A DNA stretch of 64,000 nt from a bacterium (GCA_021785355.1 JAJYFR010000001.1:1003-65002); one strand, 5' to 3'; shown: positions 1 through 38,556, counted from the stretch's first letter. Numbers and translations are program-made. The notes: generated by a model not told the origin, from the sequence alone.

Positions 1-52
1 TACCTCTATGAACATCTTTAATATATAGGATAAAGATGTTATCTGATTAATA

Positions 53-454
53 TTATTTCACTGTTTTATTAAACAATTTGGTAAGATCTTTATCAAATGT
101 TATAAGTTGGTCAAGTTTGTATCTTATGCAAAAAGCAATATTGGTACAATCTATATAGCTGATATTTTTATTTATTTCTTTTCTAAATATTGTTCTTGCA
201 ATGTCTTCTGTTTCTCTCTTGGGTATCAATATTTTTGTATTTCCAGAATAAATATCATTTTCAAAAACTATGGCTGTTTTATGATTAAATTTTTGGGACA
301 GTACAGTTAGACATTCTGAGATTATATAACTGGAAGTAAACAATTCTGATTTTTGAGATTTCAAAGTATCTAGTAATTCTAAAGATTGTATATGGGTGGA
401 TTCTTCTTTGTTCAATATTGAAATATATACATTAGAATCTATGAATGCTTTCAT
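53..454 (-). CDS. PIN-domain nuclease, VapC-like toxin of a type II toxin-antitoxin pair
   Basis: 133 aa. N-terminal FIDSNVYI and C-terminal ITFDKD acidic motifs are typical of PIN domains. The start is 1 nt from the stop of the upstream 74-aa partner gene. Confidence 0.6.
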   Translation of the reverse strand: MKAFIDSNVYISILNKEESTHIQSLELLDTLKSQKSELFTSSYIISECLTVLSQKFNHKTAIVFENDIYSGNTKILIPKRETEDIARTIFRKEINKNISYIDCTNIAFCIRYKLDQLITFDKDLTKLFNKTVK

Positions 455-455
455 T

Positions 456-680
456 TTATTTATATACTATTTCATCAATATGAGATGTAAGGTCTTTTTC
501 TCCTTTTAAATTGTATTTAGATAATTTTATTAGAGTGGATATACCTCTATCGTTTTTTTTGTTAAATGTATTTTCAATATAATTTCTAATAACAAAAGAT
601 ATTGGTTTATTTTCTTGTTCTGCCAACAAATCAAATTCTGCATATATATCTTGTGGTAAGTATAGTTGTACTTTTTTCAT
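456..680 (-). CDS. Putative antitoxin (ribbon-helix-helix/CopG-like) paired with the PIN toxin
   Basis: 74 aa. The N-terminal KKVQLYLPQDIYAEFDLLAEQENK resembles an RHH beta-strand-helix. It is tightly coupled to the downstream PIN gene. Confidence 0.45.
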   Translation of the reverse strand: MKKVQLYLPQDIYAEFDLLAEQENKPISFVIRNYIENTFNKKNDRGISTLIKLSKYNLKGEKDLTSHIDEIVYK

Positions 681-1007
681 AACATCAATATTATAACAAT
701 TTTGTGAAAAAGAGTCAAGGAGTCTTCAAATCTAGGAATTTATTTATGATTATGATTCTATATATTCTTTGTTGAGGATTTTGCTCAGAGTAATTTTTAA
801 AGAATCTTTAGTTATATATATCTATAGTAAATATATTATTTGCTCTAATAGTCCTTACAGCTATTTTTATTAAAGAGAATTAATATATTTGATATTTTTA
901 TCCCGCAGTCCAAAGTAAATATTATAAGATACTACTTTTACGTATTAAATTTATAATTTAGCTTTATCTTATACCTGAAGAGAATTTTACACACAGTTTT
1001 CATGCCC

Positions 1008-1036
1008 TTGACAAAAACTATAGGACGTGATAGCAT
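1008..1036 (+). promoter_or_regulatory. Sigma70-like promoter TTGACA-17-TAGCAT carrying a conserved extension TTGACAAAAACTATAGG
   Basis: TTGACA at 1008..1013, a 17-nt spacer, then TAGCAT at 1031..1036, about 37 nt upstream of the ATG at 1073. The same 17-mer recurs at 27904 and a close variant at 14215. Confidence 0.4.
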
Positions 1037-1072
1037 GTATTTTACATTATTTTAAATATACTTTTAATATTT

Positions 1073-2170
1073 ATGAATATAGAAGCAATAGATACATTTA
1101 TAGAAAGAGATGAAAAAAAAGAAGCTTCTTTGCAAAAAAAAGAAACTCCTATAGAAACTACATCTAGACATTTTAGAGAATTCAATAACAATGTACCTAA
1201 TTTTTTAGTAGATGGAAAAAATGAAGAAGAAGCTTCTCTTCCTGAATTAAAGTTTGACAAAGTCAGAGATGCAGAAACAGGGCAAGAATACAGAATTTTT
1301 ATTATCAATGAAGAATCAATTAAAGAGGGAAAAATCCCAAATGTTCTTACATTACAATATAACATAGGTGTAGATCATAAACCTGTACAATATTTAGCAC
1401 AAGTAATGGGACAAGAAGGAGATCCAATTATTTGCGTAGAAAGTCCTTCTGTTGGGGAATCTTCTGATATGACTAAAGATCAAAAAAAATTTTTAAAAGA
1501 GGGAGAAAAACCTTTTGAAAAAATATCTGAAAGTTTGTTGAGAGCTTTATATGGAAAAATCTATAATCCAAGAAATAAGGATAGAGAAATAAATTTTGTA
1601 GGATATTCACAAGGAGCAATTACAGCTTTAAGTAATGCGGAAGTAGCAGATAAATATGGTTTTAAAGTTAGAAAAGTTTTTCTTTTAGATATTCCTGGTA
1701 TAAAAGATTTTGGGAAAGGAGAAATAGGTTCAATTTTAGGCATAACCGGGGCTTTTAGTTCAGAAGCCTCAAGTTTAGGGTTTTATGAAAAAGATCCTAA
1801 TGATGAGAGGCAAAGAGAGGTTAGTGGGGTTGATAAAAAAAATAATCCACTAGTTACAAATGCTAGACTACTTAGAGATGTTGTAATAAAACCTATGACT
1901 AGAAGAGGTATGCAAACAGGGTATCCTGCTGCTATGGGAAGAAAAGTTGTTCCTGCGATTCTTGAATCTGCTTTGTCAAAACAGCCTGATATGAAAGTAA
2001 CTTTTGTGAGTGGATCTAAAAGTAAAATTACTCCAACTGAAGATACAAAAGAATTGCTTAAAGAATTTAATACAGATAGGATAAGAAGGATAGTTCTTCC
2101 AGGAGATACACATTCTGTAGGAGAGAGAGCTAGGAGACTAGGGGCATTATTCAAATTTACGAACAAATAA
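1073..2170 (+). CDS. Hypothetical alpha/beta-hydrolase-fold protein (esterase/lipase-like, GYSQG nucleophile elbow)
   Basis: 365 aa. The G-x-S-x-G motif (VGYSQGA) lies mid-protein, with downstream Asp and His candidates (LLDIPG, GDTHSVG). There is no signal peptide, and a promoter sits directly upstream. The antisense ORFs in the track are low-complexity and probably spurious. Confidence 0.6.
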   Translation: MNIEAIDTFIERDEKKEASLQKKETPIETTSRHFREFNNNVPNFLVDGKNEEEASLPELKFDKVRDAETGQEYRIFIINEESIKEGKIPNVLTLQYNIGVDHKPVQYLAQVMGQEGDPIICVESPSVGESSDMTKDQKKFLKEGEKPFEKISESLLRALYGKIYNPRNKDREINFVGYSQGAITALSNAEVADKYGFKVRKVFLLDIPGIKDFGKGEIGSILGITGAFSSEASSLGFYEKDPNDERQREVSGVDKKNNPLVTNARLLRDVVIKPMTRRGMQTGYPAAMGRKVVPAILESALSKQPDMKVTFVSGSKSKITPTEDTKELLKEFNTDRIRRIVLPGDTHSVGERARRLGALFKFTNK

Positions 2171-2182
2171 TATTGTTAATTT

Positions 2183-2262
2183 CTTATAAAGGAAATTTCT
2201 CGTACATATAAAGATAGATCTAATGATGTAATAAGCTCTTTTTCTTTTAATGTTTGATAAAT
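2183..2262. repeat. Degenerate duplicate of the valS 3' end (~89% identical to 3089..3167)
   Basis: Direct repeat cttataaaggaaatttctcgtacat...tctttttcttttaatgtttgata. A 1-nt indel breaks the valS C-terminal reading frame in this copy. Confidence 0.7.
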
Positions 2263-2361
2263 ACTCTCAGTGATAAATGGAATAAGTTGATATTTTTATT
2301 TAAAAGTCCTAGTTTATATAAAGCTATTTAAAGTTTTAAGAGTAGTAAGTTGTAATAATTT

Positions 2362-3081
2362 TTGAAAAATGATAAATATATTATTAGTATGGAAGATATC
2401 TCAAAAGAAGAAGTTTCTAATGCAAATACAATTGAATCTCAGAATAGTATCTCTACTTCTCAATCTTTTTTAAAAAAAACAGATTATTATAATATTTTTG
2501 TAAGCATACTAGTTGGATTTTTTTTATTAATATTAATTATCTTATTCATAATACCTTATTCTCATACTCATAATTTAAAAAATACAAATATTTATGGTTT
2601 AGGCGGGACAAAATCTTTATATAAAGGAAAAATTAATGATTCGTTTAATATAAATATTGTCATTACTATAGATTCTATAAATAGTGCTATAGAACACTAT
2701 ACAGTTGATAATAAAGGAGTTTTGCCTCCTTTACCTCAATTAACATCTCCTGCGATTGTAACATCAGGTACATCATACGGATATAATATACGAGGTAATA
2801 CAAAAGGAACTCCAATTTGTGCAATAAAAACAAAAGGAACACTTCCTACACAAGTTGCAAAAGTAAAAGTGTCAGGTTTTGATTCTTGTGAAACTTTAGC
2901 TACACTTGAAAAAGCTGTACCTGCTATAAAAAATTATTTATTAACCCCTTCAGTAGGAGGAAATGTTAATTATTATATAGCAGAAAGTGCAAATGGAACA
3001 GGGATTTTAGTATTTGCAACTGGTATGAAAAAAGGAGCAACAAGTAATACAGAAGGTTATCCAATAGCTTATCTTTATTAA
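2362..3081 (+). CDS. Hypothetical membrane-anchored protein (single N-terminal TM helix, Gly/Thr-rich ectodomain)
   Basis: 239 aa. A hydrophobic segment FVSILVGFFLLILIILFII is followed by a hydrophilic extracytoplasmic region. The gene is bounded by the valS 3'-end direct repeats. Confidence 0.55.
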   Translation: MKNDKYIISMEDISKEEVSNANTIESQNSISTSQSFLKKTDYYNIFVSILVGFFLLILIILFIIPYSHTHNLKNTNIYGLGGTKSLYKGKINDSFNINIVITIDSINSAIEHYTVDNKGVLPPLPQLTSPAIVTSGTSYGYNIRGNTKGTPICAIKTKGTLPTQVAKVKVSGFDSCETLATLEKAVPAIKNYLLTPSVGGNVNYYIAESANGTGILVFATGMKKGATSNTEGYPIAYLY

Positions 3082-3088
3082 ATTTTTC

Positions 3089-3167
3089 CTTATAAAGGAA
3101 ATTTCTCGTACATTAAAGATGTATCTAGAGGAGTAATAAGATCTTTTTCTTTTAATGTTTGATATAT
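3089..3167. repeat. Second copy of the direct repeat; this copy is the authentic valS 3' end
   Basis: Matches 2183..2262. It encodes ...DLITPLDTSLMYEKFPL* on the minus strand. Confidence 0.7.
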
Positions 3168-5273
3168 ATTTTCTGTTATAAAAGGTATAAAAGGATGCAT
3201 TACTATTATATTTTGAAGTAGGGTATATATAAGTTCTGCTTTCATGTCTAGAGTCTGATATTCTTTAGTTTTTTCAATATATATGTCACAATAAGTGTGA
3301 TGATAAAAATTTTGAATATTGAAAGCCGCAATTCCTATATCAAATTTTTCTAATAATTTCTCTATGTTTCTTATATGCTTTTCTTGTTCTTTTTGAATAC
3401 TAAAATCTTTCATTTTTACTCTATACCCTAGATTTTCTCTAATATATTTTTTGTCTTCAGAAGAAAGATTTTCTGTCTGCAATAAGATATATCTTGCAGA
3501 ATTATATATTTTATTAATAAAATTTCTAAATCCTTTTACTTTTTCTTCATACAAACGAAGATCTTGATCTGCCGCATTTCCTGAAACTAATGATAACCTT
3601 AGTGCATCTGTTCCAAATTTATCTATAAACGTAGAAGGGTCCATTCCATTACCTTTCGATTTAGATTGTTTTTGACCATCTTTATCTAAAACTATTCCAT
3701 GCAGATAAACATCCCTAAAAGGAACTTTTTTTGTTTTATACAAACTTAACATCACCATCCTGGATACCCAAGAGAAAAGAATGTCTCTTCCTGTCTCCAT
3801 TACATCTTCAGGATAAAATTCTTTAAAATCTTTAGAATTTAATCCTCCTAGAACAGAATAAGGCCATTGAGAAGAAGAAAACCAAGTATCAAAAATATCT
3901 TCATCTTGAACTATTTTTGAGGATTTACAAAAGGGGCATTCTTTTGGTTCATCCAAAGATACAAATGTATTTCCACAACCTAAAATTTTTTCTGTAATAT
4001 CTCCATTTTCACTTATTATCGTTTCTTTGCCTCCACAGTAATAAACAGGAATTCTTTGCCCCCACCACAGTTGTCTTGATATACACCAGTCTTCTAAATT
4101 TTCTAACCATTGAACATAATTCTTTTCTTGTCGTTTAGGATGAATATGAATTTTTTCTTCTTCTAATGCTCTTATAGCAGAAGATGCCATATCTTTAGTT
4201 TTTAAAAACCATTGATAAGATATTAAAGGTTCTATTACTGTTTTTGATCTTTCACAAATCTGAATACTATGTTTGATTTTTTCTATCTTTTTTATTAAAT
4301 CTAAATCTTCTAATTCTTTTACAATAAGATCTCTTGCTTCTTTAACTTTCAATCCTTTATATTTTCCATATGTCATTTTTCCTCTCTGATCAATGACACT
4401 TATTATTGGTAGATTATGAATCTCTCCTAGTCTAAAATCTTCTTTTGAATGTCCTGGAGTAACTTTTAATACACCTGTTCCAAAATTTATATCAACAACC
4501 CTATCTCCTATAACAGGTAGGGTTTTTAACCCTTCTAGACTTTTAAATTCTATTACTTTTCCTATTAGGTGCTTATATCTTTTATCTCTTGGATTTACGG
4601 CAATTGCTGTATCTGCAATTATAGTCTCAGGTCTTGTTGTCGCAACTATTAAATCTCCGTATTTAATGTAATACAGAAAAGACTCTTCTTCTTCATATTC
4701 TGTATCAATGTCGGCTAGTGCTGTAAAACATTTAGGACACCAATTTATAATTCTTTTTCCCCTATATACTAAACCTTGATCAAACATTTCTTTGAAAGTT
4801 TCATTTACTATTCTGTTTAAATCCTCATCAAGTGTGAATTTTTCTCTAGAAAAATCTGCACTAAGGCCTATTCTTTTCTCTTGAGAACGGATATTATTAG
4901 AATTAATAATACAAAAATCAAAACACTGTTTATAAAACTCTTCTCTGCCTAAATCTCTTTTTTTTATACCTTTTTTTTCTAGAACTTTTTCAAAAACAAC
5001 TTCAGTTTGAATACTAGCATGATCTTTTCCAGGAACTAAAAGAACTTTATAACCTTTTAACCTTTTATATCTAGCAAGTATATCTTGATATGTATATCCT
5101 GATACATGACCTAAGTGTAGAGTTCCATTAGCATTAGGAGGAGGAAGAGGAATACTAAATGTTTTTTTCCTACTCTCTTTATATTCAGGAGTATATAAAT
5201 TGTTTCTTTCCCAGAAATTTAAAATTTCTATTTCAGTTTTATTAGGATTATATGATTTTTCTTCAATATTCAT
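3090..5273 (-). CDS. valS: Valyl-tRNA synthetase (class I aaRS), short form lacking the long C-terminal coiled-coil
   Basis: 727 aa. The PPPNANGTLHLGHV HIGH region and the KQSKSKGN (KMSKS-like) motif match ValRS signatures. Editing-domain-like and Zn-binding cysteines (CPKC...CGG...C) are present. Confidence 0.75.
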   Translation of the reverse strand: MNIEEKSYNPNKTEIEILNFWERNNLYTPEYKESRKKTFSIPLPPPNANGTLHLGHVSGYTYQDILARYKRLKGYKVLLVPGKDHASIQTEVVFEKVLEKKGIKKRDLGREEFYKQCFDFCIINSNNIRSQEKRIGLSADFSREKFTLDEDLNRIVNETFKEMFDQGLVYRGKRIINWCPKCFTALADIDTEYEEEESFLYYIKYGDLIVATTRPETIIADTAIAVNPRDKRYKHLIGKVIEFKSLEGLKTLPVIGDRVVDINFGTGVLKVTPGHSKEDFRLGEIHNLPIISVIDQRGKMTYGKYKGLKVKEARDLIVKELEDLDLIKKIEKIKHSIQICERSKTVIEPLISYQWFLKTKDMASSAIRALEEEKIHIHPKRQEKNYVQWLENLEDWCISRQLWWGQRIPVYYCGGKETIISENGDITEKILGCGNTFVSLDEPKECPFCKSSKIVQDEDIFDTWFSSSQWPYSVLGGLNSKDFKEFYPEDVMETGRDILFSWVSRMVMLSLYKTKKVPFRDVYLHGIVLDKDGQKQSKSKGNGMDPSTFIDKFGTDALRLSLVSGNAADQDLRLYEEKVKGFRNFINKIYNSARYILLQTENLSSEDKKYIRENLGYRVKMKDFSIQKEQEKHIRNIEKLLEKFDIGIAAFNIQNFYHHTYCDIYIEKTKEYQTLDMKAELIYTLLQNIIVMHPFIPFITENIYQTLKEKDLITPLDTSLMYEKFPL

Positions 5274-5407
5274 ATTTTAATAATTATATCATAGAAGACA
5301 AAAAAATAGCTTTAAAATGTATATGAATAATGCTCTAAACAGAGGGATCTTTACAGATTTTATAGATAAGGTATTATAGATATAATTTATATTAGATTTT
5401 ATATTTT

Positions 5408-6889
5408 ATGAGTATAAAAATAAAAAAAGCTTATTTTTTAGTATTTTTTCTCTCTTTGTTATTAATTTATATGCTTTCTTTAGGTAAGGTATTTGCAGAT
5501 GCACCAGATGCATCTCAAGTTCTTGCTGTTAGTAAAGATTTAAAAATAGTAGTTTTACCTACACAACTTGCAAGTGGAGCACCTTCTGGGTACTATATAA
5601 TATCTAAAACAGGAGCAGTACTGTCTTATGGAAATGCCCAGTTTTATGGAGATTTAACACAAATTCCTAATATTCCTAATAATCAGGTCGCAGATATGGT
5701 TTTAACTCCAAATGATTTAGGTTATTATATTCTTACCAAAGATGGGGGAGTATATACTTTTGGAAATGCTAAGTTTTTTGGTTCTGTTTTTAATATAACT
5801 AATGCTCCTATAAAAAATGCAGTTTCTATAAAATTAACTCCAAATGGTAATGGTTATTATGTTCTTACAGAAGATGGTGCTGTATATACATTTGGAACTG
5901 CTAAATTTAATGGATCTATGTATAATATACCAGCAGCACCTAATAAGGTTCCTGTCTCATTAAATATAACTCCTAACGGTCAAGGTTATTATATTCAAAC
6001 AGAAGATGGAGGTATATATACATTTGGGAATGCTCAATTTTTAGGATCAGTATATAATATTCCTCAGGCTCCTGTAAAAAATGCAATGGGAATGAAATTA
6101 ACTCCAAGAGGTCAAGGATATTATGTTCAAACTACAGATGGAGGTGTATATACTTTTGGAACAGCTCAATTTCAAGGATCAATATTTAATATAAAAGGAG
6201 CTCCTAATAAAACAGTCGCAGATATTGCTATAACACCAAATGGACAAGGTTATTATGCTCTAACTGCAGATGGAGGAGTATATACATTTGGGAATGCTCA
6301 GTTCGATGGTGCAGATTCAGCAGATGTAGCAGAAAATACTCTTACTGTGAAAAGTTATGTACAAGAACAAGTATCTCCAACTCAAGTTTTAGTAGAGGGA
6401 GAGATTCAGAATAATTCTAATACTACAATGACAGGAGTTACTCTTACTGCAACTGGTTCTTTTGGAACTCAGACAGTTACACCTATAATGTCAGCTCTAA
6501 ATCCTGATCAAAAAACTGCATTTATGTTTAGTTATCAAGGAACAGTATCTTCAGTAACATTTAGTGTAACAGGAACAACTTTTTCATCTAGTTATACAGA
6601 TCCTTTAAAGGTAAGTAATATTCAAGTAACTCAAGGTAGTGGAACTATAACAGTTACAGGAAATGTTACTAATAATTCTTCAGTTACTATAACTACTCCT
6701 AAGGTAGATATATTGTTTTTTGACTCAAATGAAAATATAGTAGCTCTACTAGATGCTACTAATAGTTTAGCTTCAAGTACCATTGCTCCAGGAGCTACAA
6801 CAACATTTAGTGCAACTCTTACGGGAGCTCCTGTATCTCAAGTATCTACAAACTTTGATGATGCAGTAAAAGTTTTTGCATCAAATTAG
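5408..6889 (+). CDS. Secreted repeat protein: signal peptide, about 6 copies of a ~44-aa GYYxLTxDGGVYTFGNAQFxGS repeat, and two Thr/Ser/Val-rich beta-sandwich-like C-terminal domains
   Basis: 493 aa. The signal peptide MSIKIKKAYFLVFFLSLLLIYMLSLGKVFA precedes tandem repeats of period 44 aa. The same repeat family occurs in 15870..17945 and 17945..20041. Confidence 0.8.
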   Translation: MSIKIKKAYFLVFFLSLLLIYMLSLGKVFADAPDASQVLAVSKDLKIVVLPTQLASGAPSGYYIISKTGAVLSYGNAQFYGDLTQIPNIPNNQVADMVLTPNDLGYYILTKDGGVYTFGNAKFFGSVFNITNAPIKNAVSIKLTPNGNGYYVLTEDGAVYTFGTAKFNGSMYNIPAAPNKVPVSLNITPNGQGYYIQTEDGGIYTFGNAQFLGSVYNIPQAPVKNAMGMKLTPRGQGYYVQTTDGGVYTFGTAQFQGSIFNIKGAPNKTVADIAITPNGQGYYALTADGGVYTFGNAQFDGADSADVAENTLTVKSYVQEQVSPTQVLVEGEIQNNSNTTMTGVTLTATGSFGTQTVTPIMSALNPDQKTAFMFSYQGTVSSVTFSVTGTTFSSSYTDPLKVSNIQVTQGSGTITVTGNVTNNSSVTITTPKVDILFFDSNENIVALLDATNSLASSTIAPGATTTFSATLTGAPVSQVSTNFDDAVKVFASN

Positions 6890-15869: not shown

Positions 15870-17945
15870 TTACTGAGTAATTGCTATTGCTCCACTCGGA
15901 TCAGGATATAAGGTTCCTTCAGAAAGTATCCCTCCAAATGTATATAAAGCACCATCTTTCTCTAAAATCATATATCCAGAATTTGTTATTAATAGACTCG
16001 TAGGATTATTTTGAGGAACAGCTGATGAAGGAATATTATACATAGATCCATAAAACTGAGCATCCCCAAATGTATATATGGCTCCATCCTTTGTCAGTAT
16101 ATAGTATCCTTCTCCTTGAGAAGAAAGTCTTAGTGCAACGGCTGTCTTTACTGGGGCATTTGGAATGTTAAAAACAGATCCATAAAACTGAGCATCTCCA
16201 AATGTATATACTGCTCCATTAGATGTAAGTATATAATAACCTGATTGATCTTGGGTTAATACCAAAGAGAGTGGAGTTCTTACAGGTACTGCAGAAGAAG
16301 GAATATTATACATAGATCCATAAAACTGCGCATTTCCAAATGTATATACCGCTCCATCTTCTGTTAGTATATAGTAACCTAGATCATTCTTTGTAGGTAC
16401 TATAGCTACAGATTGTTGCACAGGAGGATTAGGAATATTATACATAGATCCATAAAACTGCGCATTTCCAAATGTATATACCGCTCCGTTAGATGTAAGT
16501 ATATAATATCCCGTATTAGTTCTTGCTATATCTGTGGGAGTAGAATTTACAGGTAAATTTCCCCAATACTGATCTTGTCCAAAAGTAGAAACTGTTCCTT
16601 GTGATGAGAGTACAGTATAAGGGGTACTATTAACAGGATAATTTAACATATTATTTATATTTAAAAGACCAAAACCATAAAGATTATAGTTTCCCAGAGA
16701 AGTAGAACACATTTTTAATATATTTTCCATAAAAGCAGAATTTTGTACTCCATTTACAGATTCATATAAGGCGATTGCTGCTACTACCTGAGGTGTTGCA
16801 AAAGATGTTCCCACTAAATATTCATTAGAAAAACTACTAAATGAACTAACTGTCCCTGTATCATATCCTGTGAGAGTTTGTTGATATACTAAAGGTGTGT
16901 TATATCCTACAGGAGCAACTACTGTTTGACAATTTAGATCTGTACTACATCCATAATTAGAATATGAGGTAAGCGTATTAGAAGAATTACTAGCTCCAAC
17001 TGCAATTACATTTGGATATCCTGCAGGGTAATCTAGAGAATTACTTCCTTCATTTCCTGAAGCTGCAACAACAATAATTCCATCATTTATTGCTTGTTCT
17101 ATTAAAGTCTCCTCACTCTGAGATGGAGTAGTGGAGGCTATGGAAAGATTTATTATATTTGCATGATTATTAATTGCCCATTGAAGACCTAAAAGTTCTG
17201 CACCTAGAGGAATTCCATTACTATTTCCTATCTTTACAGGCATGATTGTTGCATTAAAAGCAATTCCTGCTGTAGCATAATTCAAAGAACCCGAAGCATC
17301 ATTATTTGTACTTGATGCTATTATTCCTGCTATATATGTCCCATGTCCTACATTATCATATGGAGCATATTCATTTTGAAGCTGATTGTTATATACAGCT
17401 AATGCATTATATGGATCTTTTATGTTAAGATTTGATAAAGAAGGTGCTTGTGCATAAAAAGTATTATCTAATGGATTGGTATAATTTTGATAAGCTATTC
17501 CAGAGTCTAATACAGCTATAGTAATATTAGATGACCCTCCTAAAGAACTACTAAACCCATTATTATCTACTACAGGAGCATGTGTTAAAAATAGATTTTT
17601 CTGTTGTGTTATATCTATATTATTAGGAAGTTGAGAAAAACTTTTAATGTAATTGGGAGTAACATTATAAAGATTTGTATTTGAAAGTAAGCTTATTAAG
17701 AAATTTTCATAACTCATATTGTTAGGTTTTTCTACAATTTCAGTATTAGAGTTAATTTTTCTTACACTATATCCTAAATTTAAATTTTGAGAATTTATAT
17801 TTACTATTGCATTATTGAGTGTATATCTTTTATTTTGAGTAAGAATTGTAAATTTTTGATATACAGAAATATCCTGAGCATATATCTTAGAAAACAGGAT
17901 AAATGAGAATGATAAGCTTATTGAGATAAATAAAAATTTTTTCAT
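15870..17945 (-). CDS. Secreted subtilisin-like serine protease (peptidase S8) with ~6 C-terminal GYYILTxxGAVYTFGNAQFYGS repeats
   Basis: 691 aa with a signal peptide. The S8 triad motifs are IAVLDSGI (Asp), HGTYIAGIIAS (His) and GTSFATPQVVAAIAL (Ser). The C-terminal ~250 aa consists of 44-aa tandem repeats. Confidence 0.85.
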   Translation of the reverse strand: MKKFLFISISLSFSFILFSKIYAQDISVYQKFTILTQNKRYTLNNAIVNINSQNLNLGYSVRKINSNTEIVEKPNNMSYENFLISLLSNTNLYNVTPNYIKSFSQLPNNIDITQQKNLFLTHAPVVDNNGFSSSLGGSSNITIAVLDSGIAYQNYTNPLDNTFYAQAPSLSNLNIKDPYNALAVYNNQLQNEYAPYDNVGHGTYIAGIIASSTNNDASGSLNYATAGIAFNATIMPVKIGNSNGIPLGAELLGLQWAINNHANIINLSIASTTPSQSEETLIEQAINDGIIVVAASGNEGSNSLDYPAGYPNVIAVGASNSSNTLTSYSNYGCSTDLNCQTVVAPVGYNTPLVYQQTLTGYDTGTVSSFSSFSNEYLVGTSFATPQVVAAIALYESVNGVQNSAFMENILKMCSTSLGNYNLYGFGLLNINNMLNYPVNSTPYTVLSSQGTVSTFGQDQYWGNLPVNSTPTDIARTNTGYYILTSNGAVYTFGNAQFYGSMYNIPNPPVQQSVAIVPTKNDLGYYILTEDGAVYTFGNAQFYGSMYNIPSSAVPVRTPLSLVLTQDQSGYYILTSNGAVYTFGDAQFYGSVFNIPNAPVKTAVALRLSSQGEGYYILTKDGAIYTFGDAQFYGSMYNIPSSAVPQNNPTSLLITNSGYMILEKDGALYTFGGILSEGTLYPDPSGAIAITQ
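16300..16487. repeat. Intragenic near-identical DNA repeats: a 56-nt perfect repeat at 16300..16355 and 16432..16487 with a 132-bp period
   Basis: ggaatattatacatagatccataaaactgcgcatttccaaatgtatataccgctcc occurs twice exactly. Related copies near 16050 and 16170 encode the YTFGNAQFYGS blades. Confidence 0.8.
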
Positions 17946-20041
17946 TATGGAATAAGATTAATTCCTACTGTTTTTTGAAATATACCAATAGCTGTTCCAT
18001 CATATACAGCATTTCCAAAAGTATATATCCCTCCATCTTGGGTCAACAGATAATATCCTCCATTGTTTGATGTTACTACAAATGATTGAGGTGTAGTATT
18101 AGGTGCTCCCTGAATATTGAACATAGATCCATGAAATTGTGCATCTCCAAAAGTATATACTCCTCCATCTTGAGTGGTTATATAATAACCTGCGCCATCT
18201 GGTGTGAGTGCAAAATCAACTGCATTTTTATTGGGAGCATTAGGTATATTAAAGACAGATCCATGAAATTGTGCATCTCCAAAAGTATATACTGCGCCAT
18301 TAGATGTCATTATATAATAACCACCTCCATCAGGAGTCAGTGCGAAAGCAAGAGGCGTTCTGTCAGGAAGTGCAGATGCTGGGATATTAAATAGTGATCC
18401 GTGGAATTGTGCATCTCCAAAAGTATATACTCCTCCATCCGTAGTTAAAACATAATATCCTTTTCCATCAGGTGTAGTTACAATTGAGACTGGAGTTTTT
18501 ATTGGAGCATTAGGTATATTAAAAACAGATCCATAGAATTGAGCAGATCCAAATGTATATATTCCTCCATCAGTAGTTAGGATATAGTAGCCTGTATCAT
18601 TTGGTAGAGTTGCTAAACCTTGCGCATTTGAATCAGGAGCTCCATTTACATACGACATATCTCCATAATAATTTGCATTTCCAAATGCAAGAACTTTTCC
18701 TGCAGAAGAAAGTAGGGTATATGCACTGTTTATATTTGAAAAAATAGAATTTGTTGTAAAATATGTATTTATAGCTGATGTAAGGTTAGTTGACGGTTGT
18801 TCATAGCCTAATGTCCATAAACTAACTCCTCTAAGATTAGATTGTAAAACTTGAGAGTAAACTAAACCTAGTGATGTAGCATTAGAATAGTATCCTTGTC
18901 TTAACTGATCTGAGGAGGCACAGTTAGGTGGAGTATTATTAGAAGGATAGCAATATCCATACCAAGGAGTTGAGCTTTGTGAATCCCAATGCTTAGTATT
19001 TTGATTTTTATATTGATCATTTGTCTGACCATAAGGTTCATTTATTCCACTTCCTGATACAGTAGATGCATTTTGATTATTAGATGTTGTTTGATAATCA
19101 TTTCCATAATATGGAACACCTAAAATTATTTTATTAGGATTAATAGCTGATGCATAATCAAGAATTGTACGTCTAACATCATACCATAAAGGACCTGCTC
19201 CGTTATTATATCCTGTAAAAGGATTTACAGGCTCAGCTACACTGGATGAAGGAGTGTAATAATCATAAGCCATTACATTTAGAGCATCTGTAACGTTTGC
19301 AAGTTGAGGAACATTAAATAATGATCCTGTCCAACGTACTGCTGAAGCAAAAACATCTACACTAACAAAAGATCCTGGAATTTGAGAATGTGTTTGTTGA
19401 GTTAGATTAGAAATAAAAGTTGTAAAATTATTTATTGTTGTAGTGCTAGGTGTTCCTTGTGAAGGTTGATATTCAAAGTCTATATTTACTCCATCACAAT
19501 TAAATTTCTTTACTATAGATATAATATTATTAATAAAATTTTGAGCATTTGTTGTATTATTTACAACACTTTCAATGTCTGTGATATTAAATATTTTTGC
19601 AGAAATTATAACCCGTACATTTTTTGAATGGGCAGTGTTTACCATATCTGTAAATTGAGAAGAATTTAATCCAGCCCAACCACTTCCTCCTCCTGCGTTT
19701 GTTCCAAAATTACCATTACCATCTGATGTTATTCCAAAATAGTCTATTGTAGTAAGATTAGAATAAGGATATGAAGTATATGCACCAGAAGAAAGATCCC
19801 AATATGGAGCAAATCCCATAACCTCCTTTTGTAAACCTTGTGGGCCTAAACTCGCAAATTTCTTTAAAGGTTGAGGTTTACTAACAGCAGGTGTAAACGA
19901 ATATGTTTTATTTGAATAGAAAGAGTTTAGATAACTGTTTCCTTGATATGCTGAAGATGGAGGTGTACTCGCAAAAACTCTACCTGTTAGAGAAAGAGAG
20001 AATACTGTGAAAAATATAGAAAAAAATATTTTTTTAAACAT
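17945..20041 (-). CDS. Secreted glycoside hydrolase family 18 (chitinase/endo-beta-N-acetylglucosaminidase-like) with ~6 C-terminal repeats of the same family
   Basis: 698 aa with the signal peptide MFKKIFFSIFFTVFSLSLTGRVFA. GH18 motifs are GFAPYWD, the catalytic DGVNIDFEY (DxxDxDxE) and MAYDYY. The C-terminal repeats are GYYVLTTDGGVYTFGDAQFHGS. Confidence 0.8.
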   Translation of the reverse strand: MFKKIFFSIFFTVFSLSLTGRVFASTPPSSAYQGNSYLNSFYSNKTYSFTPAVSKPQPLKKFASLGPQGLQKEVMGFAPYWDLSSGAYTSYPYSNLTTIDYFGITSDGNGNFGTNAGGGSGWAGLNSSQFTDMVNTAHSKNVRVIISAKIFNITDIESVVNNTTNAQNFINNIISIVKKFNCDGVNIDFEYQPSQGTPSTTTINNFTTFISNLTQQTHSQIPGSFVSVDVFASAVRWTGSLFNVPQLANVTDALNVMAYDYYTPSSSVAEPVNPFTGYNNGAGPLWYDVRRTILDYASAINPNKIILGVPYYGNDYQTTSNNQNASTVSGSGINEPYGQTNDQYKNQNTKHWDSQSSTPWYGYCYPSNNTPPNCASSDQLRQGYYSNATSLGLVYSQVLQSNLRGVSLWTLGYEQPSTNLTSAINTYFTTNSIFSNINSAYTLLSSAGKVLAFGNANYYGDMSYVNGAPDSNAQGLATLPNDTGYYILTTDGGIYTFGSAQFYGSVFNIPNAPIKTPVSIVTTPDGKGYYVLTTDGGVYTFGDAQFHGSLFNIPASALPDRTPLAFALTPDGGGYYIMTSNGAVYTFGDAQFHGSVFNIPNAPNKNAVDFALTPDGAGYYITTQDGGVYTFGDAQFHGSMFNIQGAPNTTPQSFVVTSNNGGYYLLTQDGGIYTFGNAVYDGTAIGIFQKTVGINLIP

Positions 20042-34423: not shown

Positions 34424-34501
34424 GGATGATATTATAAATTATTAAAGTAAGTATATTTCTTAGAAGAATAAAAAGAGGAGCTTATCTATCCTGATGCTAT
34501 T

Positions 34502-34690
34502 ATGCTTATAGGAGCAGGAGACCCTTGGAATAGTAAAGAGAATGAAGAAAGACCATATTCTATAGCATTGGCAGCTTTTATTGTATCAGAAGCTTTCTTA
34601 GCAAAAGAAAAATTGAATTGGAATCCTGAAATTTTATTAAAAGAGGGGTTAATAAAAACTATTGCATATTTTGAGAAAATTACAAAATAA
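34502..34690 (+). pseudogene. Chimeric gene remnant: a paralogous fragment of the N-terminus of 37765..38556 fused to the C-terminal tail of an NAD-dependent sugar epimerase/dehydratase
   Basis: A 39-nt stretch, cctgatgctattatgcttataggagcaggagacccttgg, matches 37792..37830 with 2 mismatches. The C-terminal LNWNPEILLKEGLIKTIAYFEK matches the conserved LGWKP..LEEGL..TI.WF tail of extended SDR epimerases. At only 62 aa it cannot be functional. Confidence 0.4.
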
Positions 34691-34840
34691 AAATATTTAA
34701 TAAGGTTATTAGATTCCGGTAGAATTTATAAAGTCATAACAATTACCTCATATATGATCTCTTTTTTCTATATCATCCTATACATTCTTCTTTATAAATG
34801 AGGTATAATCAAGATATTAAAATAAACAGGATTTGAAGAC

Positions 34841-37764: not shown

Positions 37765-38556
37765 TTGAAATTGAAAAAAAAAAGAGAATTTCCTGATGTT
37801 ATTATGCTTATAGGTGCAGGAGACCCTTGGCACAGCTCAGAAAATAAAGATAGATTATACTCTATGTCTCTTGCTGCTTTTATAATCTCTGAAAAATCAT
37901 CAAAAAAACCATATATTCTTTCTTCTGCTTCAAATATAGATCATTTTAGTAAAAAAGATTCAGTAAAATATGAAGAATATTCAAAAGTATTACAAGATAC
38001 TCTAATGGAACTAGGAATAGAGGAAGATCACATAATAGCTAGAGATAAAGCATTTAATACTCATATTGAATTAAGGCTATTAAGACCTTTATTACGAATG
38101 TATATAAAAAGTATTAATAAAGAAGAAGGTGTAATTCCTAATATTCAAATAATTGCATTTCATAATAAAACAAGAGTTGAAAAATTATTAAAATTTTTGA
38201 ATTCAGAGGGTAGGGGGTTGGATGGTAATATTAGTGTTAATACTCCTGATGAGATATTTAAAAAATTTGATCCGAATCTAGAGTATAGGGATATTATGAA
38301 TAATCCTAAAGAAGATATTTTCTCCGAGAAAAGATATTCAAAATATGATGGTATAGAGAGAGTTTTTAATGTTTTTGGTAAATTTAGTCCTCTGTATCCA
38401 AATAATAGAGCTTATCTTGCTTCAAAGGCAAGAAAAGTCTCAGTTCCTTATAAGTGGTCTGTAGATACAGTAGTATCTGGGTCTAAAAAATCTCAAGCAA
38501 AAAAGAAATCTCTAGATATTTTCTATAAATTATTAAAAAGTTTTCTTGGAGATTAA
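37765..38556 (+). CDS. Hypothetical protein (N-terminal LIGAGDPWHS motif; a paralogous fragment lies at 34502)
   Basis: 263-aa ORF. Its N-terminal 35 aa are duplicated in the remnant at 34502..34690. Confidence 0.55.
   Translation: MKLKKKREFPDVIMLIGAGDPWHSSENKDRLYSMSLAAFIISEKSSKKPYILSSASNIDHFSKKDSVKYEEYSKVLQDTLMELGIEEDHIIARDKAFNTHIELRLLRPLLRMYIKSINKEEGVIPNIQIIAFHNKTRVEKLLKFLNSEGRGLDGNISVNTPDEIFKKFDPNLEYRDIMNNPKEDIFSEKRYSKYDGIERVFNVFGKFSPLYPNNRAYLASKARKVSVPYKWSVDTVVSGSKKSQAKKKSLDIFYKLLKSFLGD

What the first reader, a model, noticed from the sequence alone, without database searches (positions are those of the whole stretch)
2183..3167. A gene inserted next to valS is flanked by ~80-bp direct repeats that duplicate the valS 3' end
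A ~80-bp sequence at 2183..2262 is about 89% identical to 3089..3167. The second copy is the real valS C-terminus and stop. The first copy is a frame-broken pseudo-copy. Between them lies only ORF 2362..3081, a membrane-anchored hypothetical protein. Duplication of a host gene 3' end flanking a cargo gene is the classic footprint of site-specific integration that regenerates the gene end, as with integrative elements targeting gene 3' ends, or of a small tandem duplication carrying a novel gene. No integrase is present, so this looks like an old, decayed event.
Basis: seen in the sequence. Interest (0 to 1): 0.55.

Follow-up and report, generated by a model that had tools for sequence, protein, structure and literature searches.

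The report
Leftover valS gene end beside inserted gene
One gene was inserted right behind the essential valS gene of an uncultured Patescibacteria bacterium, and the incoming DNA supplied a new valS end that pushed the old end aside as a dead fragment; this is a known kind of insertion scar, seen here in an unusual group of bacteria.

Summary
Window 2180-2285 and 3086-3190 form a 106-nt direct repeat, 85% identical with one 1-nt indel (E about 1e-26). There are only two copies. Copy 2 is the true end of valS (3090..5273, minus strand). Copy 1 is a pseudo-end broken by one extra base at 2208. Only one ORF (2389..3081) lies between them.

The 14 differences between the copies are mostly synonymous (9 synonymous, 5 not; pN/pS 0.14; P about 5e-5 to 4e-4). 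So the two copies come from two diverged, once-functional valS alleles. An in-place duplication that then decayed does not fit.

In relatives with 63-69% identical ValRS, valS is directly followed by rplY in four genomes. Other genomes carry different cargo there, so the gap is an insertion hot spot. The closest relative (L022) has the same layout with a different cargo gene and a different repeat boundary.

The cargo is a membrane-anchored copy of the globular domain of the genome's own type IV pilin, which lies 18 kb away (82% nt identity). No integrase, tRNA, Rfam or phage link was found.

Verdict: a horizontal insertion that replaced the valS 3' end, similar to the e14/icd case. The mechanism is unresolved between homology-anchored recombination (slightly favoured) and a decayed site-specific element. 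Modest interest.

The parts
3090..5273 (-). valS, valine-tRNA ligase, 727 aa, intact
   Evidence: Pfam tRNA-synt_1 E=1e-124 and Anticodon_1 E=4e-13. Nearest database relatives are 63-69% identical, Patescibacteria.
3086..3195 (-). Repeat copy 2: the functional 3' end of valS (last ~35 codons, stop at 3090-3092, plus 4 nt beyond the stop)
   Evidence: It is closer to the valS ends of relatives than copy 1 is (79.6% vs 74.7% to L016; 1 vs 6 unique changes against L022 and L016).
2389..3081 (+). Cargo gene: a 230-aa protein (239 aa from TTG at 2362) with a novel N-terminus, one predicted transmembrane helix and a pilin-type globular domain. It converges on valS, with the two stop codons 8 nt apart.
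   Evidence: No Pfam, NCBIfam or PADLOC hit; one weak PHROG hit (phrog_2892, E=0.0036). The C-terminal 150 aa are 69% identical to P0002, a type IV pilin carrying the GFxxxE motif. DNA 2687-3072 is 82% identical to the P0002 gene. Codons 1-108 are unrelated at DNA level. Only 7 relatives exist among 1.84 billion representative proteins.
2291..2388 (+). Unique spacer upstream of the cargo gene. It holds the inner junction of the insertion.
   Evidence: Similarity between the two copies ends at about 2285-2291. No promoter-like site above background lies in this spacer.
2180..2290 (-). Repeat copy 1: pseudo valS 3' end (pseudo-stop at 2184-2186), frame broken by one extra base at 2208
   Evidence: Of the 14 substitutions against copy 2, 9 are synonymous. 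It has no start codon and is not part of any plausible ORF.
1073..2170 (+). 365-aa orphan gene whose stop lies 13 nt from the pseudo-valS stop. It is part of the lineage-specific fill of the valS-rplY gap and lies outside the repeat-bounded unit.
   Evidence: No Pfam, NCBIfam or PDB hit; only marginal hits in PHROGs (phrog_102, E=0.013) and PADLOC (Cas11f, E=0.0084). Absent from the valS-rplY gap of all relatives examined.
53..680 (-). RHH antitoxin (456..680) and PIN toxin (53..454) pair, also lineage-specific fill between valS and rplY
   Evidence: Pfam PIN E=3e-14 and RHH_1 E=4e-4. rplY follows just outside the window (L001).

Best explanation
The region is the scar of a horizontal insertion. 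DNA from a diverged relative of the same lineage entered carrying a valS 3' end together with that donor's downstream neighbour gene, a membrane-anchored pilin-domain gene. It recombined into the resident valS using the valS homology as its anchor. This was either one homologous crossover of a circularised fragment (Campbell-type) or one homologous end plus one illegitimate end (homology-facilitated illegitimate recombination). One valS end now completes the working gene (copy 2). The other end (copy 1) was left about 0.9 kb away, is not translated, and has since gained a frameshift. The repeat has no function of its own. Its only likely consequence is that its 23-25-nt identical blocks could allow the cargo to be deleted again by recombination. 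No dedicated integrase is needed. The conserved essential gene acts as the landing pad, which would explain why the gap behind valS varies so much among relatives.

Shown: the repeat, the pseudo-status of copy 1, the allelic (synonymous-biased) divergence, the empty sites, the parallel case in L022, and the origin of the cargo.

Inferred: the direction of transfer, which copy is resident and which is foreign, and the recombination route.
For: (1) The divergence between the copies is of coding type. Over 32 codons Sd=9 and Nd=5, pS=0.46, pN=0.065, pN/pS=0.14. P=4e-4 (binomial) and 5e-5 (simulation keeping the same substitution spectrum). The changes that can be assigned to the copy-1 branch are also mostly synonymous. 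Both ends therefore evolved as parts of working valS genes.
(2) Empty sites: valS is followed directly by rplY in L016/L017, L019/L020, L023 and L108. Different cargo sits there in L018, L022, L024 and L109/L110.
(3) A parallel case exists in the closest relative, L022. The order is valS, then one cargo gene (AAA_14/DUF4143 ATPase), then a second copy of valS starting 234 nt before its end. That copy is 94% identical over 90 nt before the contig ends, with 3 synonymous and 2 conservative changes. The different cargo and different boundary argue against a fixed att site.
(4) Each repeat-bounded unit holds exactly one gene and no recombinase.
(5) The only close homologue of the cargo is the resident pilin gene 18 kb away (82% nt, pS=0.31). 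That divergence is of the same order as between the two valS ends, which points to a related donor rather than a phage.
(6) Single crossover of a circular molecule carrying part of a gene end has been shown experimentally to duplicate 109-950 bp of that gene end around the insert (PMC3240628).
(7) Related strains occur together in the same metagenome sample (ERZ27237304 yields L019, L022 and L105).
Against: No donor genome or allele of the copy-1 type exists in the databases; nothing lies between 69% and 99% ValRS identity. No strain of the same species without the insert was seen. Homology of about 105 nt at 85% identity, with identical runs of only 23-25 nt, is a poor substrate for RecA. HFIR usually gives deletions rather than duplications. 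The 63-nt identical block at the upstream edge of the L022 repeat looks like a crossover core, as in site-specific systems. Other relatives with cargo behind valS (L018, L024, L109) show no duplication. The statistics rest on only 32 codons.
Confidence: 0.45

Rival explanations
1. This is a decayed site-specific integrative element, as with e14 or phage 21 in icd, or a CIME-type remnant. On this reading the element's attP contained an alternative valS 3' end. An integrase inserted the element into valS. The integrase and the rest of the element were later deleted, leaving one cargo gene between attL and attR.
For: The architecture matches e14/icd: a working gene completed by one copy, a displaced pseudo-3' end (163 bp for icd), and mostly synonymous plus conservative D-to-E differences. 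The same gene end is hit in two related genomes with different cargo. In L022 the repeat opens with 63 identical nt, as expected of a crossover core. The gap is a hot spot.
Against: There is no integrase or recombinase, and no pseudogene debris. The 0.9-kb unit is filled by one intact ORF plus a 98-nt spacer. In the window the upstream edge of the repeat is the most diverged part (7 differences in the first 24 nt), so no core sits at the boundary. The boundaries differ (-105 vs -234 nt). No viral contig carries a valS-end fragment or the 23-nt identical block. The cargo is related to a resident chromosomal gene, not to phage families. Two independent elements would each have had to decay to exactly one gene.
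Confidence: 0.3
2. A second, complete valS gene was acquired together with the cargo gene. The redundancy was then resolved by deleting most of one copy, leaving only its last ~105 nt.
For: This also explains the coding-type divergence of the two ends and needs no integrase. Natural transformation is reported to generate merodiploids, i.e. partial chromosome duplications (PMC3784515 abstract).
Against: It needs an extra large deletion ending just upstream of the cargo gene, in two genomes independently (window and L022). No other valS remnant exists in the 3.2-kb gap.
Confidence: 0.1
3. The valS end was duplicated in place (tandem or segmental duplication), and the spare copy then decayed neutrally. 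The pilin-like gene arrived or arose between the copies.
For: It is the simplest way to obtain two copies. The cargo is a paralogue of a gene in the same genome. The frameshift shows that copy 1 is dead.
Against: Neutral decay predicts about 20% synonymous changes; 64% were observed (9 of 14; P=4e-4 to 5e-5). The copies are not adjacent. A tandem duplication of valS end plus cargo would leave a second cargo copy, and none exists.
Confidence: 0.05
4. The repeat is a conserved regulatory or terminator element placed after each of the two plus-strand genes, or it is a chance or assembly artefact.
For: Each copy starts 5-10 nt after the stop of a plus-strand gene (2170 and 3081). Each contains a weak hairpin, TTCCTTATAAAGGAA.
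Against: Variation follows the valS codon phase. There is no Rfam hit and no terminator call at either copy. Four of the eight close-relative genomes have no such arrangement, and none of about 80 more distant CPR valS loci shows it. E=3e-26 excludes chance. Independent assemblies agree.
Confidence: 0.02

Closest known systems
e14 / phage 21 integration into the 3' end of icd in E. coli (icd plus the icdC pseudo-end)
   Same: In both, a housekeeping gene is completed by one copy of its 3' end and a displaced 3' fragment (163 bp for icd, about 106 nt here) lies on the far side of the inserted DNA. In both, the differences are mostly synonymous with conservative D-to-E changes (PMC6379469, PMC13626634; vs 40, 41).
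   Different: e14 is a 15-kb prophage with its own integrase and SOS-induced excision. Here the unit is 0.9 kb with one non-phage gene and no recombinase, and there is no identical core at the upstream edge of the repeat.
CIMEs (cis-mobilizable elements): att-flanked remnants of ICEs/IMEs at gene 3' ends, e.g. in streptococci
   Same: Both consist of cargo bounded by direct repeats at the 3' end of a conserved gene, without recombination genes (concept recalled from memory; papers listed but not read in detail).
   Different: A CIME is defined relative to a known autonomous element that shares its att sites. No such element is known for this lineage. The repeats here are 15% diverged rather than near-identical cores.
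Campbell-type single-crossover insertion and homology-facilitated illegitimate recombination (HFIR)
   Same: Incoming DNA with homology to one gene end integrates without a site-specific recombinase. Single crossovers duplicate 109-950 bp of the gene end around the insert (PMC3240628).
   Different: Those are laboratory events with identical homology. Here the homology is 85% and the event is natural and fixed in the species. No microhomology junction can be checked without the donor sequence.
Type IV pilins (prepilin GFxxxE class), for the cargo gene
   Same: The globular domain is homologous to that of P0002 (69% aa) and to a small CPR-only pilin family.
   Different: The cargo protein lacks the prepilin cleavage/methylation motif. 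It has a 35-aa N-terminal extension and a different transmembrane helix. A comparable degenerate paralogue (P0127) sits after dnaN in a relative, without flanking repeats.

Membership tests
Gene-3'-end-regenerating integrative element (e14/icd type) | Direct repeats flank the insert: one copy completes the target gene, the other is a displaced pseudo-3' end | tested here: met
Gene-3'-end-regenerating integrative element (e14/icd type) | The two ends differ mainly by synonymous or conservative changes (two functional alleles) | tested here: met
   pN/pS 0.14, P=4e-4 to 5e-5; polarised changes
Gene-3'-end-regenerating integrative element (e14/icd type) | An integrase/recombinase gene lies inside the repeat-bounded unit | tested here: not met
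   One intact ORF fills the unit; it has no Pfam, NCBIfam or PADLOC hit and only a weak PHROG hit. In L022 the unit holds only an AAA_14/DUF4143 ATPase.
Gene-3'-end-regenerating integrative element (e14/icd type) | An identical crossover core sits at the upstream (gene-proximal) edge of the repeat | tested here: inconclusive
   Window: the edge is the most diverged part, and the identical blocks (23-25 nt) lie internally or at the stop codon. L022: 63 identical nt at the edge.
Gene-3'-end-regenerating integrative element (e14/icd type) | An empty target site exists in related genomes | tested here: inconclusive
   valS-rplY adjacency in 4 relatives. No genome has valS directly next to the 1073..2170 gene, and no insert-free strain of the same species was found.
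Gene-3'-end-regenerating integrative element (e14/icd type) | Excision and circularisation at the repeats | not testable with these tools
   Needs read-level data or an experiment
CIME (att-flanked remnant without recombination module) | A cognate autonomous element with the same att site and an integrase exists in the same or related hosts | tested here: not met
   No viral contig has a valS-end fragment or the 23-nt identical block. None was seen in the 8 close-relative valS loci examined. Whole genomes were not searched.
Campbell-type single crossover / HFIR insertion | The insert is flanked by a duplication of the homologous anchor segment, of variable length between events | tested here: met
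   About 106 nt in the window and at least 90 nt (starting at -234) in L022. Experimental range 109-950 bp.
Campbell-type single crossover / HFIR insertion | The incoming DNA derives from a homologous locus of another genome (a donor allele of the anchor) | tested here: met
   Coding-type divergence of the two ends. The cargo is related to a resident gene at similar divergence.
Campbell-type single crossover / HFIR insertion | Microhomology at the illegitimate junction / an identified donor sequence | not testable with these tools
   No donor-type genome in the databases
In-situ tandem duplication | The spare copy diverges without regard to codon phase, and the duplicated units are adjacent | tested here: not met
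Type IV prepilin (cargo gene) | N-terminal prepilin cleavage/methylation motif (G-F-x-x-x-E) followed by a hydrophobic helix | tested here: not met
   No TIGR02532 or PF07963 hit for the ORF, whereas P0002 hits both. Alignment.
Type IV prepilin (cargo gene) | Homologous globular pilin domain | tested here: met
   69% identity over 152 aa to P0002. Fold not confirmed: the AlphaFold model has pLDDT 44.

The most novel reading that the evidence does not exclude
In this Patescibacteria clade the 3' end of valS may be a recurrent landing site for single-gene cassettes. The cassettes would be inserted by a mechanism not yet described: either a trans-acting recombinase that recognises the valS end, or a transformation-driven, homology-anchored capture route peculiar to these small-genome, likely competent bacteria. 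Each event would leave a displaced valS end behind.
Probability: 0.12. Interest if true: 0.6.

Novelty: new member of a known kind. Interest (0 to 1): 0.3.

Why it matters
The scar records gene exchange between diverged lineages of an uncultured Patescibacteria (CPR) group. I know of few documented recombination events or mobile elements in this group (from memory; literature not surveyed). It shows that a conserved essential gene can act as the anchor beside which new genes are captured: here a surface pilin-domain variant, and in a sister genome an ATPase. It also shows that counting synonymous against non-synonymous differences can separate 'foreign allele' scars from in-place duplications, even on 100 nt. 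It reveals no new molecular machinery.

Tried and rejected
- Rfam scan of 1-6000 at E<=1: no hits.
- tRNA/tmRNA scan of the whole window: none, so this is not a tRNA-type att site.
- Promoter/terminator scan of 600-3400: no terminator at either copy and no promoter above background upstream of the cargo gene.
- Search for a third, more decayed valS remnant in the 3.2-kb valS-rplY gap, by tblastn and blastn with seven relatives' valS ends: only copy 1 was found.
- PHROGs, PADLOC, NCBIfam and PDB searches for the cargo and the 365-aa gene: nothing meaningful.
- Viral contig scans with the ValRS C-terminal 110 aa and with the 23-nt identical block: nothing. The scan with the pilin alignment failed for lack of conserved columns.
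- Genome and metagenome scans for closer relatives: only ValRS at 52% identity or less beyond the clade already found. No donor-type or insert-free genome is available.
- Test for the same duplication at 92 other CPR valS loci: only L022 has it.
- Test for a flanking duplication around the analogous paralogue P0127 after dnaN: none.
- Structure prediction of the cargo: pLDDT 44, unusable, so no fold search was run.
- Pfam on ten other mid-sized window ORFs, looking for a recombinase: none found. The remaining ORFs of the window were not scanned.

Full report
**Observation.**
The window is AT-rich. From its best protein matches it belongs to an uncultured Patescibacteria (CPR) bacterium: the nearest ValRS in species-representative genomes is 44-46% identical (Saccharibacteria and Kerfeldbacteria), and the nearest anywhere are 63-69% identical.

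The reported repeat is real. The window compared with itself gives 2180-2285 vs 3086-3190: 106 nt, 84.9% identity, one 1-nt gap, E=3e-26. There are only two copies in the window, and no further copy in the whole valS-rplY gap.

- Copy 2 is the end of valS (3090..5273, minus strand; 727 aa; tRNA-synt_1 E=1e-124).
- Copy 1, read on the minus strand, encodes IPFITESIYQTLKEKELITSLDLSL. One extra base (A at 2208 on the + strand) then shifts the frame before MYEKFPL and the stop. It has no start codon and belongs to no plausible ORF.
- Between the copies lies a single gene, 2389..3081 (TTG alternative start at 2362). Its stop is 8 nt from the valS stop.
- The stop of the 365-aa gene (2170) lies 13 nt from the pseudo-stop of copy 1.

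Seventeen contigs carrying the identical ValRS were read from several assemblies. The three distinct places shown, with the other 14 collapsed as similar, have the same gene order, and a 99%-identical ValRS variant has the pilin-like ORF in the same position. Assembly artefact is therefore excluded.

**What the two copies are.**
I compared the 32 shared codons. There are 14 substitutions, 9 synonymous and 5 not. By Nei-Gojobori counting, pS=0.46, pN=0.065 and pN/pS=0.14. Random placement would give about 20% synonymous changes; P=4e-4 by binomial test and 5e-5 in a simulation that keeps the same base changes.

I polarised the changes with the valS genes of relatives. Most assignable changes lie on the copy-1 branch (6 vs 1 against L022 and L016), and most of these are themselves synonymous.

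A fragment that had been duplicated in place and then drifted would not look like this. Both ends evolved as parts of working valS genes, so the locus holds the ends of two diverged alleles. The pseudo-copy has since acquired only one indel, which means the event is not very old relative to the divergence between the alleles.

**Comparison with relatives.**
I fetched the valS neighbourhood for eight related genomes with 63-69% identical ValRS.

| Locus (calls) | What follows valS |
|---|---|
| L016/L017 (19) | rplY directly, 46-nt gap |
| L019/L020 (21) | rplY directly, 41-nt gap |
| L108 (54) | rplY directly, 85-nt gap |
| L023 (28) | rplY directly, 175-nt gap |
| L018 (20) | 111-aa gene |
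| L024 (29) | 317-aa and 408-aa genes |
| L109/L110 (55) | 100-aa and 1060-aa genes |
| L022 (27) | AAA_14/DUF4143 ATPase |
| Window genome (10) | pilin-like gene, pseudo valS end, 365-aa orphan, RHH/PIN pair, then rplY just outside the window |

The ancestral state is therefore valS-rplY, and the gap is an insertion hot spot.

L022 is the closest relative (69%). After its single cargo gene (5227-6471) comes a second copy of valS 4887-4976 at 6491-6580. It is 94% identical and runs off the contig end. The first 63 nt are identical, followed by 3 synonymous and 2 conservative changes. This is the same architecture with different cargo and a different boundary: 234 nt before the valS end instead of 105.

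No other locus among the 92 valS loci tested with a complete 3' end shows such a duplication. These comprised the close-relative loci then in hand and about 80 more distant CPR loci. L108-L110, fetched later, also lack it.

**The cargo.**
The ORF has no Pfam, NCBIfam or PADLOC match and only one weak PHROG hit (phrog_2892, E=0.0036).

- Its C-terminal 150 residues are 69% identical to P0002. P0002 is a 188-aa type IV pilin with the prepilin GFxxxE motif (TIGR02532 and PF07963).
- The P0002 gene lies about 18 kb away on the same contig, next to dnaA.
- At DNA level, window 2687-3072 is 82% identical to that gene. For codons 109-239, pS=0.31 and pN=0.14. Codons 1-108 are no more similar than chance.
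- The ORF lacks the prepilin motif. It has a 35-aa N-terminal extension and a different hydrophobic helix.
- The family is tiny: 7 hits among 1.84 billion representatives. It includes another member with a degenerate N-terminus, P0127, which sits after dnaN in a relative and has no flanking repeat.
- The AlphaFold model was too poor to use (pLDDT 44).

The silent-site divergence of the cargo from the resident pilin (0.31) is of the same order as that between the two valS ends (0.46, on few sites). This fits a donor that was a related lineage.

**Mechanism.**
All the evidence fits an insertion in which the incoming DNA carried its own valS end. Two routes are known to give this layout.

1. Site-specific integration of an element whose attP includes an alternative gene end. 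The textbook case is e14 in icd, which leaves a 163-bp pseudo-end and mostly synonymous plus D-to-E differences (PMC6379469, PMC13626634).
2. Integrase-free recombination through the homologous gene end. In E. coli, single crossover of circular molecules carrying part of a gene end duplicated 109-950 bp of that end around the insert (PMC3240628). HFIR is the linear-DNA variant of this route.

I slightly favour route 2, for these reasons:
- Each unit holds exactly one intact gene, with no recombinase and no gene debris.
- The boundaries differ between the two genomes.
- In the window the upstream edge of the repeat is its most diverged part (7 differences in 24 nt), not an identical core.
- The cargo resembles a chromosomal gene of the same lineage.
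- No viral contig carries a valS-end fragment.

Three points favour route 1: the recurrence at one gene end, the 63-nt identical edge in L022, and the weakness of 85%-identical, 105-nt homology as a RecA substrate.

Three further readings are less likely:
- A second whole valS gene was acquired and then mostly deleted. This is possible but needs extra steps in two genomes.
- In-place duplication. This is rejected by the codon-phase test.
- A regulatory element. This is rejected by the codon-phase pattern, the absence of Rfam and terminator calls, and absence of the repeat in relatives.

**Function.**
The repeat itself most likely does nothing; it is a scar. Its identical 23-25-nt blocks could allow the cargo to be lost again by recombination. 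A crossover in the last 25 nt would restore an intact valS.

Whether the cargo is expressed is unknown. No promoter-like site stands out upstream. It is co-oriented with the 365-aa gene, so read-through transcription is possible.

**Novelty and verdict.**
This is a known kind of scar, gene-3'-end replacement with a displaced pseudo-end, found in a new setting: a CPR bacterium, valS as the target, single-gene cargo and no integrase. Interest is modest. The more novel possibility, a recurrent cassette-capture mechanism anchored on the valS end in this clade, is not excluded but rests on only two cases.

Noticed in passing
window 34470-34692 and 37765-37883: A 93-nt stretch (34489-34581) is 79.6% identical to the 5' end of ORF 37765..38556 (E=6e-16). 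The 34470-34692 reading frame joins that copied N-terminal piece to a tail (…KLNWNPEILLKEGLIKTIAYFEK*) that, from memory, resembles the C-terminus of a sugar epimerase/dehydratase. It has no Pfam hit. It looks like another gene-fragment chimera or pseudogene.
   Followed up: partly
window 5408-6889, 15870-17945, 17945-20041: Three large genes share 132-nt (44-aa) tandem repeats with weak RCC1-like matches. The repeats cross-match between the genes on both strands.
   Followed up: no
window 53-680; L001 16135-17389 (just outside the window): Toxin-antitoxin or abortive-infection modules (RHH+PIN; AbiEii plus a 197-aa partner) fill the gaps on both sides of rplY in this genome. They are absent from those gaps in relatives L016 and L019.
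   Followed up: partly
L022 1-231 and 5121-5226: Two diverged copies of a 414-aa AAA_14/DUF4143 ATPase gene (68% nt identity) flank valS. Each is preceded by palindromes built around TATAAT (CGGATTATAATCCG / CCGATTATAATCGG). Similar ATPase genes sit next to valS in L019, L024 and L109. They may be a mobile or frequently exchanged gene.
   Followed up: no
L098 1968-2100 vs 2497-2629: In a distant CPR contig, the 3' end of an unrelated 673-aa ORF is repeated about 400 nt downstream (133 nt, 82%, E=3e-32). This is another gene-3'-end duplication.
   Followed up: no
L105 6001-6627: A relative carries a membrane-anchored pilin-like paralogue without the prepilin motif (P0127) immediately after dnaN. 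The window genome has none at that position (L004). No flanking duplication was found.
   Followed up: yes
L044 and L099: In a standard-code (TAA/TAG/TGA) scan of + strand ORFs, the longest ORF in these two distant CPR loci was only 184 and 386 codons. This may indicate a reassigned stop codon or a fragmented gene.
   Followed up: no
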